The notes under the pieces: model-generated
Database searches by the model: none
Told to the model about the DNA's origin: nothing
What the model saw: the letters and a program-made list of their open reading frames with translations, nothing else
Made by a program: the position numbers and the translations under genes
Origin: a virus
Taxonomy: Duplodnaviria; Heunggongvirae; Uroviricota; Caudoviricetes
Virus record (IMG/VR): IMGVR_UViG_2778261509_000013
DNA length: 6,413 bases
Direction: 5' to 3' (one strand)
Shown here: one piece after another, positions 1,102-5,819 of the stretch
Position numbering within the stretch: the stretch's first letter is position 1
Layout: each line of letters opens with the position of its first letter

Positions 1102-1422
1102 TCAGCGGGATAATTTTTGGATTGTTTCGGTTGAAACGCGATCTCCCTCCGAATTGCAGGAACCATCAAGAGAGAGAGCCGGAGAAATTTGCCCGACCTC
1201 CGGCATCGTTTCATCTGTTGATAACCAATAAGCATACTTCTTAAATTTAGGGTGTTTCGTAACCTTAAGTAAGGCACCCTCTGTTACTTGCTTCCCCCTC
1301 ACCTCATAGTTAGTTACCGTCCCATAAGGCAGCCCAACACAATCCGCAAACTCCTGGCGGGTCATACCTTCTGCTTCACGAATCAGGCGAAATTTTTCAC
1401 CCATGCTTGACAAAGATGCCAT
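1102..1422 (-). CDS. C: Phage immunity repressor, P2 C-like helix-turn-helix protein (~106 aa)
   Basis: The translation has an HTH segment (MTRQEFADCVGLPYGTVTNYEVRGKQ) and a C-terminal region (KFKKYAYWLSTDETMPEVGQISPALSLDG) resembling the P2 C repressor as recalled. It sits directly upstream of int on the same strand, as in P2. The ORF track starts at GTG 1474..1476; the ATG at 1420..1422 is preferred because GGAGGA lies about 10 nt upstream on the minus strand. Confidence 0.8.
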   Translation of the reverse strand: MASLSSMGEKFRLIREAEGMTRQEFADCVGLPYGTVTNYEVRGKQVTEGALLKVTKHPKFKKYAYWLSTDETMPEVGQISPALSLDGSCNSEGDRVSTETIQKLSR

Positions 1423-1535
1423 ATCGGGCATATCCTCCATCGCAACATGCCACATCGGGCACAAACATAAAAACACTCAAATAAGCCGATATAAGCCATT
1501 TTGAGCCATTCGAACGAATTAGGGAGATTACCACA
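1423..1535. promoter_or_regulatory. Divergent promoter/operator switch region between C (leftward) and cox (rightward); includes three tandem 10-bp repeats at 1481..1510
   Basis: A 113-bp AT-rich gap separates two divergently transcribed regulator genes. Three contiguous 10-bp repeats (ATAAGCCGAT / ATAAGCCATT / TTGAGCCATT) lie 26..55 bp upstream of the cox ATG. P2-type C repressors are known to bind direct repeats. The -35/-10 hexamers could not be placed confidently by eye. Confidence 0.5.
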
Positions 1536-1829: not shown

Positions 1830-2036
1830 ATGACCAGCCATATCATCAGCGCCATTCTGACCCTTGTTTTTATTGAGATAGGCGTAATAGAGATCTATTT
1901 GTTTCGCAAGTTAACGGGACATGAAGAACGCTTTATTGAACTCAGCATTGAATATATCGCCGCTTATACCAAAGGACTTTTCCCGGCAGCTATTGGGGCG
2001 ATGTTTATAGCGTTTGTTATCTGGTTTATCGGGTGA
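1830..2036 (+). CDS. Small hydrophobic (two predicted transmembrane segments) early protein, 68 aa, unknown function
   Basis: The ORF starts 6 nt after the cox stop. The translation has two hydrophobic stretches (IISAILTLVFIEIGVIEIYLF and LFPAAIGAMFIAFVIWFIG) around a charged loop. No clear Shine-Dalgarno, so it may depend on coupling to cox. Confidence 0.5.
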   Translation: MTSHIISAILTLVFIEIGVIEIYLFRKLTGHEERFIELSIEYIAAYTKGLFPAAIGAMFIAFVIWFIG

Positions 2037-2075
2037 GAAACCTGACAACCCACAACTACTGCAATGAGGGTAATT

Positions 2076-2183
2076 ATGTGTGGCATGGACAAATTGGACC
2101 TTATGTTAATTGTAATACTATCAATTAACTTCGGTTACCTCTTAAGCGGCGCAATTCTCATGTGCGGAGGCAAACGAAAATGA
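2076..2183 (+). CDS. Possible 35-aa hydrophobic peptide (MCGMDKLDLMLIVILSINFGYLLSGAILMCGGKRK); not in ORF track
   Basis: ATG at 2076 with GAGGG 5 nt upstream; the stop TGA overlaps the next ATG (ATGA at 2180..2183). Low confidence because the ORF spans an AT-rich segment containing a perfect palindrome that could instead be regulatory DNA. Confidence 0.25.
   Translation: MCGMDKLDLMLIVILSINFGYLLSGAILMCGGKRK
2105..2129. repeat. Perfect 8-bp inverted repeat GTTAATTG-N9-CAATTAAC (candidate dimeric protein-binding site)
   Basis: Read directly: gttaattg (2105..2112), spacer taatactat, caattaac (2122..2129). It lies in the most AT-rich part of the cox-to-A interval. Confidence 0.5.
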
Positions 2184-2287
2184 ACCAGCAGTCCGCAAAA
2201 CGTGAAAACAATGCGATGCGATTTAATCGCAAATATTTTGAGTTCGGCCTCTATGCCGGAATAATTAAATCTGTACAGAGTCTTTAA
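2180..2287 (+). CDS. Small basic ORF, 35 aa (MNQQSAKRENNAMRFNRKYFEFGLYAGIIKSVQSL); not in ORF track
   Basis: GGAGG at 2166..2170 lies 9 nt upstream of ATG 2180. The TAA stop at 2285..2287 is 1 nt before the ATG of the next gene (2289), suggesting translational coupling. Confidence 0.4.
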   Translation: MNQQSAKRENNAMRFNRKYFEFGLYAGIIKSVQSL

Positions 2288-2288
2288 C

Positions 2289-2630
2289 ATGAAACAGCAA
2301 CGTAATTCACGCTTTCGCAATGGTGCAGAACGCCACGCTAACCGTTTTGCTACCAGTGCATCACGCAGCAACATCCGCTACAGCCTGAGTGATACACACG
2401 CAACGCCGGATGGCTACCCAGTAAAACAAATCGGCGAGCATGCCTGGCTGATTGAGAAAGCTGGAATCGTGATCCACAAATGCCCACGCAATCCGTTTAC
2501 CGGAAACCGCATTTTTGCATTGAGCTGCGGCGACAATCACTTCGGGCAGGATTTCACATTATACGAAGCACTACGCACGGTTGATCGTCTGCTTCGCGGG
2601 CAAAGTTTTATTAAACAGGCTGATTTATAA
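2289..2630 (+). CDS. Hypothetical early protein, 113 aa, Arg-rich N-terminus
   Basis: ORF-track ORF on the operon strand, immediately downstream of the small ORF (stop/start 1 nt apart). No recognisable family from the translation. Confidence 0.6.
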   Translation: MKQQRNSRFRNGAERHANRFATSASRSNIRYSLSDTHATPDGYPVKQIGEHAWLIEKAGIVIHKCPRNPFTGNRIFALSCGDNHFGQDFTLYEALRTVDRLLRGQSFIKQADL

Positions 2631-2640
2631 CAGGTGCTTT

Positions 2641-2919
2641 ATGACCAAAGAGCATGCACAAGGTGTATTTATCCGTTTTATTGATTTTCGCGGTGAACTG
2701 TTATTACGCGCATCGGCTATTGATGCTGTAGTCCCGGCAGCAAAAGATGTGGCCACTTACCTTTATCTGAACGGCACGCGATTGTTTGTGGAACTTCCGT
2801 ACCAGACCGTACGAGAAATCATTAGTGAAGCTGAAAAGGCACGCCAAGCTAATGGCGATGCACCCTATATCGAAATTATTTGTATGGATTCAGAAGCTGA
2901 AATTAAGAAAGCAGATTAA
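2641..2919 (+). CDS. Hypothetical early protein, 92 aa (MTKEHAQGVFIRF...)
   Basis: The ORF track starts at TTG 2581, which overlaps the upstream gene. The ATG at 2641 is preferred: AGGTG lies 5 nt upstream and it starts 10 nt after the upstream stop. Confidence 0.6.
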   Translation: MTKEHAQGVFIRFIDFRGELLLRASAIDAVVPAAKDVATYLYLNGTRLFVELPYQTVREIISEAEKARQANGDAPYIEIICMDSEAEIKKAD

Positions 2920-2930
2920 AGGGCGTTGTG

Positions 2931-3173
2931 ATGGGCAAAGAATATAAAACTCTCATTAACAAAGCACTTGAGCGTTTTTATTTTCGCTTAAGTGCATCAG
3001 GCGCTCATGCTGAACGTGCAGCCCGTGACTCATTGACCAGGGCAATCCGGAGTCTGTATGACGTGGCTTTTTACGCTGATGATCTGGATGCACTTAACGA
3101 ACTTTCCGAGCTGATCTGTGCCGCAGAATGCGGGGAACATATTGAACCGTATAAGCTGGGGAATATTGCATGA
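2931..3173 (+). CDS. Hypothetical early protein, 80 aa
   Basis: ATG at 2931 (ORF track starts at GTG 2928) with AAGGG 7 nt upstream. The stop TGA overlaps the next ATG (ATGA at 3170..3173). Confidence 0.6.
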   Translation: MGKEYKTLINKALERFYFRLSASGAHAERAARDSLTRAIRSLYDVAFYADDLDALNELSELICAAECGEHIEPYKLGNIA

Positions 3174-3283
3174 GTATATTTATCTCATGGCTTGTTCTGA
3201 TTATTTCGGTGGTTTGCGCAATTGGTATTATGCGAATTATTCATTCAGTAAAAAAGATTGAACGTTTTTTCACTGGCGAATAA
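3170..3283 (+). CDS. 37-aa single-pass membrane peptide (MSIFISWLVLIISVVCAIGIMRIIHSVKKIERFFTGE); not in ORF track
   Basis: ATGA start/stop overlap with the upstream gene; GGGGAA about 6 nt upstream. The translation is an N-terminal hydrophobic helix followed by a charged tail, the architecture of small membrane toxins and phage membrane peptides. Confidence 0.4.
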   Translation: MSIFISWLVLIISVVCAIGIMRIIHSVKKIERFFTGE

Positions 3284-4828: not shown

Positions 4829-4849
4829 GAAACCAGAGCATGCACACAC

Positions 4850-4878
4850 AAAAAAACCGCTTGCCATGCCGCAATCGG
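4850..4878 (-). terminator. Possible intrinsic terminator on the minus strand (imperfect hairpin plus U7)
   Basis: The minus strand reads CCGATTGC-GGCATG-GCAAGCGG followed by TTTTTTT (plus-strand A-run 4850..4856). The 8-bp stem has one mismatch. No minus-strand gene is evident upstream of it. Confidence 0.3.
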
Positions 4879-4950
4879 TCAGGTTACATTTCCGCTGCAC
4901 CTTATAAAACGGGTGCCGGGATTCTCAACCCGATACAGAGCAAAGCGCAT

Positions 4951-4972
4951 AACCGCGCCAGCGGTTTTTTTG
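4951..4972 (+). terminator. Rho-independent terminator-like hairpin plus T-tract on the operon strand
   Basis: AACCGC-GCCA-GCGGTT followed by a 7-T run (4965..4971), about 125 nt downstream of the 4529..4828 stop. Confidence 0.55.
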
Positions 4973-4983
4973 TGCGTACTGTA

Positions 4984-5012
4984 TTGCCACGTCTTTTTCG
5001 CGTCAGAATTAT
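4984..5012 (+). promoter_or_regulatory. Candidate sigma70-type internal promoter (TTGCCA-17 bp-AATTAT)
   Basis: The -35 TTGCCA (4984..4989) matches consensus at 5 of 6 positions, the spacer is 17 bp, and the -10 AATTAT (5007..5012) matches at 4 of 6. It lies just downstream of the terminator and upstream of the stable hairpin. By-eye match only. Confidence 0.3.
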
Positions 5013-5026
5013 GGCGGGGCGTACGG

Positions 5027-5045
5027 GGCCGACTTCGGTCGGGCC
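5027..5045 (+). other. Stable stem-loop with a C(UUCG)G tetraloop (GGCCGAC-TTCG-GTCGG(G)CC)
   Basis: Read directly: 5-bp perfect stem ccgac/gtcgg closing a TTCG loop (5034..5037), extended by 2 bp across a 1-nt bulge. There is no clean T-tract after it, so it is unlikely to be a terminator. Confidence 0.5.
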
Positions 5046-5064
5046 GGATTCTTTGCTCTCCGGT

Positions 5065-5105
5065 GTTGAGAACCCTGTACGTCTCGCCACCCCGAGATTC
5101 TCAAC
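5065..5105. repeat. Inverted repeat GTTGAGAA-N25-TTCTCAAC upstream of the 5151 gene; related motif copies at 4921..4945 and 5051..5058
   Basis: Perfect 8-bp arms at 5065..5072 and 5098..5105. The motif ATTCTCAAC also occurs at 4921..4929. A second motif, GAGCAAAG, occurs at 4938..4945 and 5133..5140, with its reverse complement CTTTGCTC at 5051..5058. Confidence 0.5.
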
Positions 5106-5150
5106 TCTGGATGGTGAGTTATTTCTATCACCGAGCAAAGAGGCCACACC

Positions 5151-5381
5151 ATGGCAAACCGCAAACAGCACCGCGCTATCGCGGAGCGTCGTCACATCCA
5201 GACTGAAATCAACCGCAGACTTTCCCGCGCATCACGCGTCGCGCAAATCATGCACATCAATATGTTGCATGAGCGCAGCCACGCACTATCAAACATTTAT
5301 TCCGCCTCTGTTTTCAGCTATCTGGCGGATGATCTGCACGAGCTTCAACAGCTCATCCAGCAGCAAAACAAACTCCATTAA
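5151..5381 (+). CDS. Hypothetical small basic protein, 76 aa (MANRKQHRAIAERRHIQTEINRRLSR...)
   Basis: AAAGAGG lies 7 nt upstream of the ATG. The Arg/Lys/His-rich N-terminus suggests nucleic-acid binding (inference). Confidence 0.55.
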   Translation: MANRKQHRAIAERRHIQTEINRRLSRASRVAQIMHINMLHERSHALSNIYSASVFSYLADDLHELQQLIQQQNKLH

Positions 5382-5453
5382 TTCCTGTTCCGGGCCTTTC
5401 CTGCACCTTGCGGCGGGAGGCCTTCGCACATCTGTAACAAGAGGATTGCCGCA

Positions 5454-5819
5454 ATGATTCTCGCCAACGACTTTCTTGAATACCTGCTCAACACAGAGCG
5501 TGATCTTGCCGCTCGCGTACGTGATCGTTATGACATGTATCTGAAATCCCTGCCTGTACCGCAGCTCGCTGACGGAAAGATTGTTATTGATGGTCGCTAC
5601 ATGATTGACAGCCACGAGGGAAATTACAGGCTTTACCGCATTGAAGGTGGCACCCCGTCCGTTATTGGCATTTACCAGCGCCCATCCTCTGCAATCGTCG
5701 ATGTGATTGCCGACAGCATCCGCATCACACATCGCCATGCCGACACAGAAGACACCGTGCTGGAAATTCAGCGGCTGGCTGCCGTCTGCCGCGACACCCT
5801 GAATGGCATGACGAAGTAA
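5454..5819 (+). CDS. Hypothetical protein, 121 aa
   Basis: AAGAGGA lies 9 nt upstream of the ATG; it ends 6 nt before the replication gene start. Confidence 0.6.
   Translation: MILANDFLEYLLNTERDLAARVRDRYDMYLKSLPVPQLADGKIVIDGRYMIDSHEGNYRLYRIEGGTPSVIGIYQRPSSAIVDVIADSIRITHRHADTEDTVLEIQRLAAVCRDTLNGMTK

What the first reader, a model, noticed from the sequence alone, without database searches (positions are those of the whole stretch)
2064..2287. Two stacked mini-ORFs and a perfect palindrome in the AT-rich gap upstream of the 113-aa gene
The 250-bp stretch between the 68-aa membrane protein and the 113-aa gene has no ORF-track call. It contains a 35-aa hydrophobic ORF (2076..2183, GAGGG Shine-Dalgarno) whose stop overlaps the start of a 35-aa basic ORF (2180..2287, GGAGG Shine-Dalgarno), which ends 1 nt before the next gene. 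Inside the first mini-ORF is a perfect inverted repeat, GTTAATTG-N9-CAATTAAC (2105..2129). Coding relay and regulatory operator are competing explanations, and both may be true.
Basis: seen in the sequence. Interest (0 to 1): 0.45.

Follow-up and report, generated by a model that had tools for sequence, protein, structure and literature searches.

The report
Two tiny genes in prophage gap
The apparently empty 250-bp gap in this P2-like E. coli prophage holds two real but very small early-operon genes: an orphan 35-residue membrane peptide, and a 35-residue basic peptide that in sister phages forms the front end of the next protein. The palindrome inside the first one is a coincidence of codon choice, so the finding is sound but fairly ordinary.

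Summary
GenBank phage records (Xuanwuvirus P88_4B11 gp42/gp43) already call both 35-aa ORFs hypothetical proteins.

- **ORF1 (2076-2183)** is a conserved gene. Diverged alleles (57-63% aa identity, 33% nt divergence) keep exactly 35 codons, an SD and the ATGA overlap. dN/dS is 0.22-0.29 in frame and 0.6-3 out of frame. It encodes a one-helix membrane peptide with no relatives among 1.84 billion representative proteins.
- **ORF2 (2180-2287)** has a conserved 27-codon core, with dN/dS between type lineages up to 0.25 (some pairs saturated). In 76 E. coli genomes this core is fused in frame to DUF4761 as a 152-aa protein. The window type (235 genomes) differs by a 1-nt indel, and its tail overlies DUF4761's conserved 5' leader. 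Recent polymorphism (1 synonymous, 6 non-synonymous, plus a frameshift allele) suggests relaxed constraint.
- **The palindrome** is not above chance, drops to 4/8 pairs in diverged alleles, and its half-site is not enriched.

Coding is supported and the operator is not. Function is unknown and translation is unproven. Interest is low to moderate.

The parts
1830..2036 (+). 68-aa two-helix membrane protein gene (phrog_14475). Every ORF1 copy found lies directly downstream of a homologue of this gene.
2037..2075 (+). Short leader containing ORF1's Shine-Dalgarno (GAGGG, 2066-2070). It is poorly conserved, but diverged alleles carry AAGGAG at the same place.
2076..2183 (+). Mini-ORF1: a conserved 35-codon gene for a single-pass membrane peptide. 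It has a polar N-terminus (MCGxDKxDL), a hydrophobic helix at about residues 9-29 and a K(R/Q)K tail. Its last codons double as the SD and A-rich spacer of the next gene.
2105..2129 (.). Perfect 8-bp inverted repeat with a 9-nt loop, lying in the M-L-I-V ... S-I-N codons of ORF1. Judged incidental.
2180..2183 (+). ATGA stop/start overlap coupling ORF1 to ORF2. The same overlap is kept in every diverged allele, whatever gene follows.
2180..2287 (+). Mini-ORF2: a 35-aa basic peptide (SD GGAGG at 2166-2170).
2180..2260 (+). Conserved 27-codon core of ORF2 (MNxQ...FxRxYFExGxYAG). It is homologous to the N-terminal extension of the 152-aa DUF4761 form.
2261..2266 (+). Site of the 1-nt length difference (ATAATT here, GAAG-T in fused alleles) that puts ORF2 out of frame with DUF4761.
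2270..2288 (+). Conserved 5' leader and RBS region of DUF4761 (consensus GGTACRGAGTYTTTRAY; here the last 16 nt, GTACAGAGTCTTTAAC). It is present upstream of DUF4761 in all contexts. Here it encodes ORF2's tail and its stop (CTT TAA C).
2289..2630 (+). DUF4761 gene (113 aa, PF15958), the downstream partner of ORF2.
1407..1461 (+). Context: a Pe-like promoter (TTGACA-18-TATCCT) flanked by two 18-nt direct repeats (1413-1430, 1444-1461). This is the likely source of the transcript carrying cox, the 68-aa gene, ORF1, ORF2 and DUF4761.
   Evidence: function inferred from the P2 paradigm

Best explanation
The 252-bp 'gap' is coding. It carries two very small genes of the early (Pe, lytic) operon of a P88-like, P2-family E. 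coli prophage. The inferred transcription order is cox, 68-aa gene, ORF1, ORF2, DUF4761, then onward to gene A.

**ORF1** is a stand-alone, selectively maintained gene for a 35-residue single-pass inner-membrane peptide. The positive-inside rule predicts N-out/C-in topology, with the KRK tail in the cytoplasm. It behaves as a small insertable cassette:
- It is found only directly after the 68-aa membrane-protein gene, which is its likely partner.
- It has its own SD.
- Its stop overlaps the start of whatever gene follows (ATGA).

**ORF2** is a detached version of a 27-codon module that in sister phages forms the N-terminal extension of DUF4761 (a 152-aa protein).
- In this lineage a 1-nt length difference puts it out of frame. 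It ends in DUF4761's own 5' leader, 1 nt before the DUF4761 ATG.
- Its translation most likely delivers ribosomes to DUF4761 by termination-reinitiation coupling.
- The free peptide may still act with DUF4761, or it may be on its way to decay.

**The palindrome** is a by-product of Leu/Ile/Asn codons (TTAATT / AATTAA) in an AT-rich helix-coding stretch and has no separate function.

Shown here: frame and length conservation, purifying selection, the fusion/split relationship, and non-conservation of the palindrome. Inferred: transcription from Pe, actual translation, membrane topology, coupling, and any partnership with the 68-aa protein or DUF4761.
For: **Context.** The layout is integrase, C repressor, Cox, then the early genes up to the replication endonuclease. 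The gap is 100% identical to Xuanwuvirus P88_4B11.

**ORF1.**
- Alleles in L027, L029 and L031 are 57-63% identical in protein, with 34-36 of 105 nt changed.
- They have no indel, no stop, exactly 35 codons, an AAGGAG SD and an ATGA overlap.
- Differences by codon position are 13/5-7/16.
- dN/dS is 0.22-0.29 in frame against 0.6-0.8 and 2.4-3.0 in the other two frames.
- In a permutation test, the probability of staying open with at least as many synonymous changes is 0.0008.
- The hydrophobic 19-residue window scores KD 2.1-2.6 and net charge is +2.

**ORF2 core.**
- dN/dS is 0.25 or below in frame (0.12-0.25 between fused alleles; synonymous sites saturated in several deep pairs, so those ratios are undefined), against about 1-2 out of frame.
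- Permutation P ranges from below 0.0002 to 0.01.
- It occurs as a free 35-aa ORF in 235 E. coli genomes.
- It is fused in frame to DUF4761 in 76 genomes, and the 152-aa cluster has 1217 members.
- It occurs as a 62-aa form in 2 genomes.
- The nucleotide alignment shows a single 1-nt indel after the YAG codons.
- ORF2's tail overlies the leader that precedes DUF4761 in all contexts.

**Palindrome.** It is not above chance and pairs at only 4/8 positions in diverged alleles. The hairpin is -5.8 kcal/mol here and 0 or -0.2 kcal/mol in those alleles. The half-site is not enriched. The gap RNA is not unusually structured (z = -1.2), and there is no Rfam hit in the gap.
Against: - There is no direct evidence of translation. 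No Ribo-seq or proteomic data were reachable; the one relevant preprint could not be read.
- The family is tiny: two deep ORF1 clades and three ORF2 states, all in E. coli-type prophages. There were 0 hits in 185,579 species-representative genomes, so the selection tests rest on few independent comparisons.
- Within window-type copies, ORF2 polymorphism is 1 synonymous to 6 non-synonymous, plus a 27-aa frameshift allele (L024, L067, L092). DUF4761 shows 25:11 and cox 19:4. Fisher P is 0.003. The free ORF2 peptide may therefore no longer be under protein-level constraint.
- No family, fold or defence-system match gives either peptide a function.
- The AF2 model of the fused form has only modest confidence (pLDDT 63.8; 56-67 over the extension).
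Confidence: 0.75

Rival explanations
1. ORF2 in this lineage is a decaying remnant. The ancestral gene would be the long 152-aa DUF4761 form, and a 1-nt insertion split off its N-terminal extension. The 35-aa ORF would then persist only because translating it feeds ribosomes to the DUF4761 start (stop and ATG are 1 nt apart). The peptide itself would have no function.
For: - A 1-nt indel separates the window type from the fused type.
- The window allele departs from the consensus core (FEFGLYAG against FENGRYAG).
- Recent polymorphism is 1 synonymous to 6 non-synonymous, and a truncated 27-aa allele occurs in natural copies. This differs significantly from cox plus DUF4761.
- DUF4761's SD-like element is weaker here (AGAG) than in fused alleles (GGAG).
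Against: - The split form is the commoner state in E. coli: 235 genomes against 76.
- The L031/L036 lineage shares the window's frame through K-S-V with synonymous differences, so the split frame is not a one-off accident.
- The direction of the split or fusion cannot be polarised without an outgroup.
- The 68-aa gene also shows a non-synonymous excess (2:9). The pattern could therefore reflect diversifying selection on early accessory genes rather than decay.
Confidence: 0.3
2. The palindrome GTTAATTG-N9-CAATTAAC is a protein-binding operator or an RNA hairpin that regulates the early operon. The ORFs would be incidental, or the element would be dual-use.
For: - The repeat is perfect (8+8 bp) and sits in an AT-rich stretch.
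- The isolated 35-nt RNA folds better than its own shuffles (z = -3.9).
- It is invariant among window-type copies except for one synonymous loop change.
Against: - It is not above chance in the window or the gap.
- Only 4/8 positions pair in all three diverged alleles, which nonetheless keep the ORF.
- The half-site is not enriched elsewhere and is absent from the Pe/Pc switch region.
- P2-type C repressors use direct repeats at Pe, and candidates for these exist at 1413-1461 (PMC1904263 for the paradigm).
- The changes that break the palindrome are mostly conservative or synonymous at the protein level (M10F, V13I, I17V).
Confidence: 0.04
3. ORF1 is a type I-toxin-like or holin-like membrane-damaging peptide of the Ldr/Fst type. 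The phage would use it for host shut-off, superinfection exclusion or abortive functions.
For: - It is 35 aa, with one hydrophobic helix followed by a K(R/Q)K tail. From my own knowledge, this is the architecture and exact length of E. coli Ldr toxins.
- The same operon encodes two other small membrane proteins: the 68-aa protein and the 37-aa peptide at 3170-3283.
Against: - No Pfam or NCBIfam toxin model matches any of the four alleles at E <= 10.
- The exhaustive profile search finds no relatives.
- No own promoter, antisense RNA or Rfam antitoxin lies at the locus. ORF1 sits in an operon with a good SD, unlike the translationally silenced type I toxins.
Confidence: 0.15
4. Both ORFs are chance open frames in a non-coding spacer, and the gene callers that annotate them are over-predicting.
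For: - PGAP declines to call them.
- They are only 35 codons long and have no family.
Against: - The frames stay open across 33-40% nucleotide divergence, with synonymous-biased substitution in one frame only.
- SD motifs and overlapping stop/start signals are conserved.
- ORF2's core is part of a longer protein in sister phages.
Confidence: 0.05

Closest known systems
Hypothetical proteins gp42 and gp43 of Escherichia virus P88_4B11 (NC_049391; YP_009877431, YP_009877432) and the equivalent CDSs of phage PhiR44_2
   Same: These are the same two 35-aa ORFs at the same positions. The gap is 100% (P88_4B11) and 98% (PhiR44_2) identical in DNA.
   Different: Those records give only 'hypothetical protein'. 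They offer no evidence of selection, no link between gp43 and DUF4761, and no comment on the palindrome.
Long (152-aa) form of DUF4761 proteins in sister P2-like prophages (cluster P0050)
   Same: Residues 1-27 of the long form are homologous to ORF2 codons 1-27. The upstream junction (MNKQQ start) and the downstream DUF4761 leader are also the same.
   Different: In the long form the module is in frame with DUF4761. In the window a 1-nt difference makes it a separate 35-aa ORF with a different 8-residue tail. The Pfam DUF4761 model does not cover the module, and PGAP does not annotate it even in fused loci.
Small single-pass membrane proteins of bacteria and phages, including type I toxins such as Ldr/Fst (compared from my own knowledge; general review PMC12648545)
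   Same: The size (35 aa), the single hydrophobic helix and the basic C-terminal tail match. The location in a mobile element also matches.
   Different: There is no sequence-family membership, no antisense RNA and no own promoter. ORF1 is expressed as an internal cistron of a phage early operon.
Accessory small ORFs between cox/apl and gene A in P2 and 186 (from my own knowledge: orf78-83 in P2, fil and dhr in 186)
   Same: They occupy the same operon position. They are also short, variable and translationally coupled, and they are exchanged among related phages as cassettes.
   Different: No sequence relationship was detected. The P2 and 186 ORFs were not compared directly here.

Membership tests
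Translationally coupled small protein-coding genes of a phage early operon | Start codon with a Shine-Dalgarno, and stop/start overlap or close abutment with neighbouring genes on the same strand | tested here: met
   GAGGG lies 5 nt before ATG 2076 and GGAGG 9 nt before ATG 2180. There is an ATGA overlap at 2180-2183 and TAA-C-ATG at 2285-2291. The same signals are present in diverged alleles.
Translationally coupled small protein-coding genes of a phage early operon | Reading frame and length preserved in diverged homologues, with dN/dS below 1 in that frame only | tested here: met
   ORF1: 35 codons in all alleles, omega 0.22-0.29 in frame against 0.6-3.0 out of frame, permutation P 0.0008. 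ORF2 core: omega 0.25 or below where estimable, against about 1-2 out of frame. Caveat: recent ORF2 polymorphism is 1 synonymous to 6 non-synonymous.
Translationally coupled small protein-coding genes of a phage early operon | Direct evidence of translation (ribosome footprints, peptide detection, reporter fusion) | not testable with these tools
   No expression data are available. The CFT073 Ribo-seq preprint found could not be read.
Operator / regulatory palindrome of the phage switch | Inverted repeat conserved in homologous elements independently of coding constraint | tested here: not met
   Pairing is 8/8 in the window but 4/8 in L027, L029 and L031. The hairpin energy goes from -5.8 to 0 or -0.2 kcal/mol.
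Operator / regulatory palindrome of the phage switch | Occurrence above chance, and repeated half-sites at regulated promoters | tested here: not met
   There are 4 such repeats in the window against 2.1 +/- 1.9 in shuffles, and local P is about 0.06. The half-site has 9 matches at up to 1 mismatch against 6.3 +/- 2.6 expected, none at Pe/Pc.
Ldr / Fst type I toxins | Match to the family's sequence model | tested here: not met
   No Pfam or NCBIfam hit at E <= 10 for four ORF1 alleles. The exhaustive profile search returns only ORF1's own family. The shuffle test against remembered Ldr/Fst sequences is not robust.
Ldr / Fst type I toxins | Small peptide with one hydrophobic helix and a charged C-terminus | tested here: met
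   The best 19-residue window scores KD 2.1-2.6 at residues about 9-29, and the tail is K(R/Q)K.
Ldr / Fst type I toxins | Own promoter with a cis-encoded antisense RNA antitoxin | tested here: not met
   No Rfam hit in 2037-2288. No minus-strand promoter-like site in the gap. ORF1 is an internal cistron with a strong SD.
DUF4761 (PF15958) | Match to the Pfam domain model | tested here: not met
   ORF2 gives no Pfam hit. The model covers residues 9-113 of the downstream 113-aa protein only. ORF2's core is an extra N-terminal module attached to the domain in some phages, not part of the domain.
prfB-type programmed +1 frameshift site | CUU-stop-C shifty heptamer, with the 0-frame stop and the +1 frame leading into the downstream ORF | tested here: met
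   ORF2 ends CTT TAA C ATG. A +1 slip on CUU/UUU would read AAC ATG into DUF4761. CTTTAAC is present in most window-type copies held, and CTTTAAA in 4.
prfB-type programmed +1 frameshift site | Strong internal SD-like stimulator about 3 nt upstream of the shift codon, and a detected frameshift product | tested here: not met
   Only AGAG lies 1 nt upstream of CTT. The stop is UAA, not UGA. No product data are available, so this part is not testable. The heptamer is also part of a leader conserved for other reasons.

The most novel reading that the evidence does not exclude
ORF2 and DUF4761 could be a naturally split protein pair that still functions as one unit. Either the free 35-aa peptide (predicted as a beta-hairpin in the fused form) binds DUF4761 in trans, or a fraction of ribosomes rejoins the two by a prfB-like +1 slip at CUU UAA C, 1 nt before the DUF4761 start. 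The phage would then make both a short and a long isoform, as sister phages could from an in-frame internal start. In parallel, ORF1 could be an orphan phage-specific membrane peptide that works with the adjacent 68-aa membrane protein on a host target, for example in exclusion or host takeover.
Probability: 0.1. Interest if true: 0.5.

Novelty: new member of a known kind. Interest (0 to 1): 0.25.

Why it matters
- **Annotation gap.** RefSeq/PGAP systematically leaves two conserved small genes unannotated in at least 235 complete E. coli genomes. It also leaves the ORF2-like N-terminal extension of DUF4761 unannotated in 76 more. This is a concrete example of the small-protein blind spot in prophage annotation.
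- **A functional link.** The split/fusion relationship ties ORF2 to DUF4761, a widespread enterobacterial prophage protein of unknown function. This is a Rosetta-stone type of clue.
- **Phage mosaicism.** The shared 'MNKQQ' junction shows how tiny cassettes are shuffled in P2-family early operons.

None of this changes a paradigm. The value lies in annotation and in pointing to testable accessory genes.

Tried and rejected
- **Family scans.** Pfam, PHROGs, NCBIfam and PADLOC scans of ORF1, ORF2 and their diverged alleles found nothing.
- **Species-representative genomes.** Degenerate-motif scans of 185,579 genomes gave 0 hits for both ORFs. The family is therefore confined to strain-variable E. 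coli-type prophages.
- **Metagenome scan.** It returned only the alleles already seen.
- **Exhaustive HMMER search.** An ORF1 profile against 1.84 billion representatives found only its own family, plus one repetitive 754-aa false positive.
- **Short queries.** I worked around this with a concatenated ORF1+ORF2 alignment.
- **Structure.** The AF2 model of the 152-aa fused form has mean pLDDT 63.8. Foldseek against PDB gave no match at E <= 0.001, so there is no functional hint for DUF4761.
- **Misalignment.** MAFFT misaligned the free ORF2 peptides against the DUF4761 N-terminus, so that alignment was discarded.
- **Literature.** There is nothing on DUF4761 and nothing specific on these ORFs or on P88 early genes. 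The UPEC Ribo-seq preprint is not held.
- **Ldr/Fst resemblance.** It was rejected as membership.
- **Other reading frames and structures.**
  - The 39-aa start at 2064 and the 41-aa GTG start at 2162 are rejected because the diverged alleles lack them.
  - The minus-strand 79-aa ORF (2135-2374) is rejected because selection acts on the plus-strand frames.
  - An RNA structure spanning the whole gap is rejected: z = -1.2.
Full report
**1. Where the window comes from**

The window is the early region of a P2-family E. coli prophage.
- On the minus strand lie an integrase (1-1020) and an HTH repressor.
- On the plus strand lie a Cox gene (1536-1823, PF10743), a 68-aa membrane-protein gene (1830-2036), the 252-bp 'gap', DUF4761 (2289-2630), a run of small genes, and the start of the replication endonuclease.
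- The gap is 100% identical to Xuanwuvirus P88_4B11 (Peduoviridae) and 98% identical to phage PhiR44_2.
- It occurs in 235 of 5426 complete E. coli genomes. DUF4761 alone is found in about 1400.

**2. Check of the observation**

- ORF1 is 2076-2183, with GAGGG 5 nt upstream.
- ORF2 is 2180-2287, with GGAGG 9 nt upstream.
- The two share an ATGA overlap, and ORF2's stop lies 1 nt before the DUF4761 ATG.
- The perfect repeat GTTAATTG-N9-CAATTAAC is at 2105-2129.
- GC content is 40.5% in the gap against 49.4% in the window.

PGAP/RefSeq indeed annotates nothing in the gap. The ORFs are not new to public annotation, however. Both exact 35-aa sequences are in the protein collection as 'hypothetical protein' on more than 1000 contigs each. 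They are CDSs gp42 and gp43 of NC_049391 and two CDSs of PhiR44_2.

**3. ORF1 is a conserved gene**

Loci fetched through the 68-aa neighbour include diverged elements. In L027, L029 and L031/L032 an ORF1 homologue is present (MCGLDKMDLFLIIILSVNFGVLLASMIFMRGYKQK and variants).
- It is exactly 35 codons long and is preceded by AAGGAG.
- It ends in an ATGA overlap with whatever gene follows. That gene is ORF2 in L031 and DUF4761 itself in L027 and L029.
- Against the window allele, 34-36 of 105 nt differ, with no indel or stop. Differences by codon position are 13/5-7/16.
- Nei-Gojobori dN/dS is 0.22-0.29 in the proposed frame, against 0.6-0.8 and 2.4-3.0 in the other two frames.
- Random placement of the same number of substitutions keeps the frame open with as many synonymous changes in only 0.08% of trials.

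The peptide has a polar N-terminus, one hydrophobic helix (KD 2.1-2.6 over 19 residues) and a K(R/Q)K tail. The conserved start is 2076, because the 2064 ATG has no counterpart in diverged alleles.

ORF1's last codons (GGKRK) coincide with the SD and A-rich spacer that precede the next gene in ORF1-less loci. ORF1 therefore looks like an insertion of about 145 nt between the 68-aa stop and the next RBS. Every ORF1 copy found lies directly after a 68-aa homologue, whereas the 68-aa gene also occurs without ORF1.

ORF1 has no relatives outside this group:
- Pfam, PHROGs, NCBIfam and PADLOC give no hit.
- There are 0 hits in 185,579 species-representative genomes.
- The metagenome scan returned only known alleles.
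- An exhaustive profile search of 1.84 billion representatives found only its own family.

**4. ORF2 is a detachable module of DUF4761**

A motif scan found the ORF2 core (FxRxYFExGxYAG) in extra loci without ORF1. In these the 27-codon core continues in frame into DUF4761, giving a 152-aa protein (MNKQQRNGKPHNTGFRRNYFENGRYAGEVNRYGVFD-MKQQ...).
- This fused form is in 76 complete E. coli genomes, and its 152-aa cluster has 1217 members.
- PGAP annotates only the short 116-aa DUF4761 there.
- A third state, a 62-aa ORF running into an inserted minus-strand gene, is rare: 2 genomes.

The nucleotide alignment shows that the window and fused forms differ by a single 1-nt indel just after the YAG codons. 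ORF2's last ~19 nt are the leader (consensus GGTACRGAGTYTTTRAY) that precedes DUF4761 in every context, including loci with unrelated upstream genes.

Across the three states the 27-codon core shows dN/dS of 0.25 or below in frame (synonymous sites are saturated in several deep pairs), against about 1-2 out of frame. Permutation P ranges from below 0.0002 to 0.01. The core has therefore been a translated sequence over the long term.

Within the window-type lineage the picture is different.
- Across 51 copies, ORF2 has 1 synonymous and 6 non-synonymous variable sites.
- A frameshifted 27-aa allele occurs in L024, L067 and L092.
- By comparison, cox has 19:4 and DUF4761 has 25:11. Fisher P is 0.003.
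- ORF1 has only 1:1.

The free ORF2 peptide may thus be under relaxed or diversifying selection. The 68-aa gene shows the same non-synonymous excess (2:9).

**5. The palindrome**

- The window holds 4 perfect 8-bp inverted repeats with 3-20 nt loops, and shuffles give 2.1 +/- 1.9. Within the gap, the probability of at least one is about 0.06. Re-encoding the ORF1 peptide with local codon usage produces one in 4% of trials.
- In all three diverged ORF1 alleles only 4 of 8 positions remain complementary. The RNA hairpin falls from -5.8 to 0 or -0.2 kcal/mol.
- The half-site is not enriched in the window and is absent from the Pe/Pc switch.
- The gap RNA as a whole is not unusually structured (z = -1.2), and Rfam finds nothing there.
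- The repeat is built from the codons M-L-I-V and S-I-N (TTAATT / AATTAA).

**6. How it most likely works**

Both ORFs are internal cistrons of the early operon, which is presumably transcribed from the Pe-like promoter at 1407-1436 (inferred from the P2 paradigm, PMC1904263, PMC3448106).
- ORF1 makes a single-pass membrane peptide that is probably a partner of the 68-aa membrane protein (inferred from strict adjacency).
- ORF2's translation ends 1 nt before the DUF4761 start, where the SD-like element is weak (AGAG against GGAG in fused alleles). Termination-reinitiation coupling is therefore the simplest role for it in this lineage. Whether the free peptide still acts with DUF4761 is open.

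An AF2 model of the fused form predicts the module as a beta-hairpin (residues 17-29, pLDDT 56-67) ahead of a better-defined DUF4761 core (pLDDT about 80). Foldseek against PDB gives no significant match.

**7. Cassette junctions**

Whatever gene follows the 68-aa gene or ORF1 begins with ATGAATAAGCARCAR (MNKQQ), apart from the window's own ORF2, which has the variant ATGAACCAGCAG (MNQQ). The gene can be ORF2, the extension-DUF4761 fusion, DUF4761 itself, or an unrelated 136-aa protein in L035. Each is preceded by a similar SD and A-run. This shared junction of about 35 nt is a plausible site for homologous exchange of modules. It would explain the at least seven architectures seen between cox and DUF4761.

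**8. Comparison with known systems, and novelty**

The ORFs are identical to already deposited hypothetical proteins. They belong to no described family, and they are not Ldr/Fst toxins by any sequence test, although ORF1 shares that architecture. ORF2 is not part of the Pfam DUF4761 domain.

The finding is a sound example of small, unannotated but conserved prophage genes, with a neat split/fusion relationship. I classify it as a new member of a known kind, with interest of about 0.25.

A speculative point cannot be tested here. ORF2 ends in CTT TAA C, the same form as the prfB +1 frameshift site, and a +1 slip there would recreate a fused protein. However, the stimulatory SD is weak and the heptamer lies in a leader that is conserved for other reasons.

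Noticed in passing
window 4897-5381: Rfam finds an isrK Hfq-binding RNA (4897-4971, 60.5 bits) and a C4 antisense RNA (5007-5094, 78.5 bits). They are followed by a 76-aa ORF (5151-5381) that matches the Pfam 'Derepression' family (E = 6e-8). This looks like a P1/P7-style c4-antirepressor immunity module inside a P2-like phage. NC_049391 annotates a 205-aa 'transcriptional regulator' (gp51, window 4840-5457) across both RNAs, which is probably a mis-call.
   Followed up: partly
window 1413-1430 and 1444-1461: Two 18-nt direct repeats (AAGATGCCATATCGGGCA and AACATGCCACATCGGGCA, 31 nt apart) flank the -10 region of the best promoter-like site (TTGACA-18-TATCCT, 1407-1436), between the repressor and cox. 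They are likely C-repressor operators of the Pe/Pc switch.
   Followed up: no
window 3170-3283: A third tiny membrane-peptide gene (37 aa, MSIFISWLVLIISVVCAIGIMRIIHSVKKIERFFTGE) has the same ATGA overlap with its upstream gene. PGAP annotates this one but not the two 35-aa ORFs, which shows an arbitrary cut-off in small-gene calling.
   Followed up: no
window 1830-2036: Among 51 near-identical copies, the 68-aa membrane-protein gene has 2 synonymous and 9 non-synonymous variable sites. This differs from cox plus DUF4761 (44:15) with Fisher P = 0.0007, suggesting diversifying or relaxed selection on this early membrane protein.
   Followed up: partly
window 2166-2194; L027:2163-2200, L030:2362-2400, L034:2239-2280, L035:2241-2280: Every gene placed after the 68-aa gene or ORF1 starts with ATGAATAAGCARCAR (MNKQQ; the window's ORF2 has the variant ATGAACCAGCAG, MNQQ), after a similar SD and A-run, even when the proteins are unrelated. 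This looks like a shared recombination junction for cassette exchange in the early operon.
   Followed up: partly
L001 2537-3750 (NZ_CP021339): In strain 95NR1 an IS1203 element is inserted between the repressor gene and cox and truncates Cox to 68 aa. That copy of the prophage has probably lost its lytic switch, yet it keeps the gap 100% identical.
   Followed up: no
window 2581-2919; proteins P0121, P0140, P0152, P0155: Some Salmonella, E. albertii and E. coli records carry 211-aa proteins in which DUF4761 is fused by frameshift to the downstream 92-aa gene. The frame upstream of that gene is open back into the end of DUF4761 in the window as well. Neighbour fusions and splits therefore recur along this operon.
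   Followed up: no
window 2176-2183; proteins P0031, P0034: Rare assemblies carry 1-nt length changes in the A-run at the ORF1/ORF2 junction (CGAAAATGA). They give a 70-aa ORF1-ORF2 fusion or a 62-aa read-through product. These may be sequencing errors or real slippage-prone variants.
   Followed up: no
L036 3091-3327 (minus strand), L004 2142-2333 (minus strand): In several sister prophages a small minus-strand gene is inserted just upstream of DUF4761. One is 78 aa, with a weak BssS-family match (E = 0.001). The other is 63 aa. The 62-aa ORF2 form overlaps the first in antisense.
   Followed up: no
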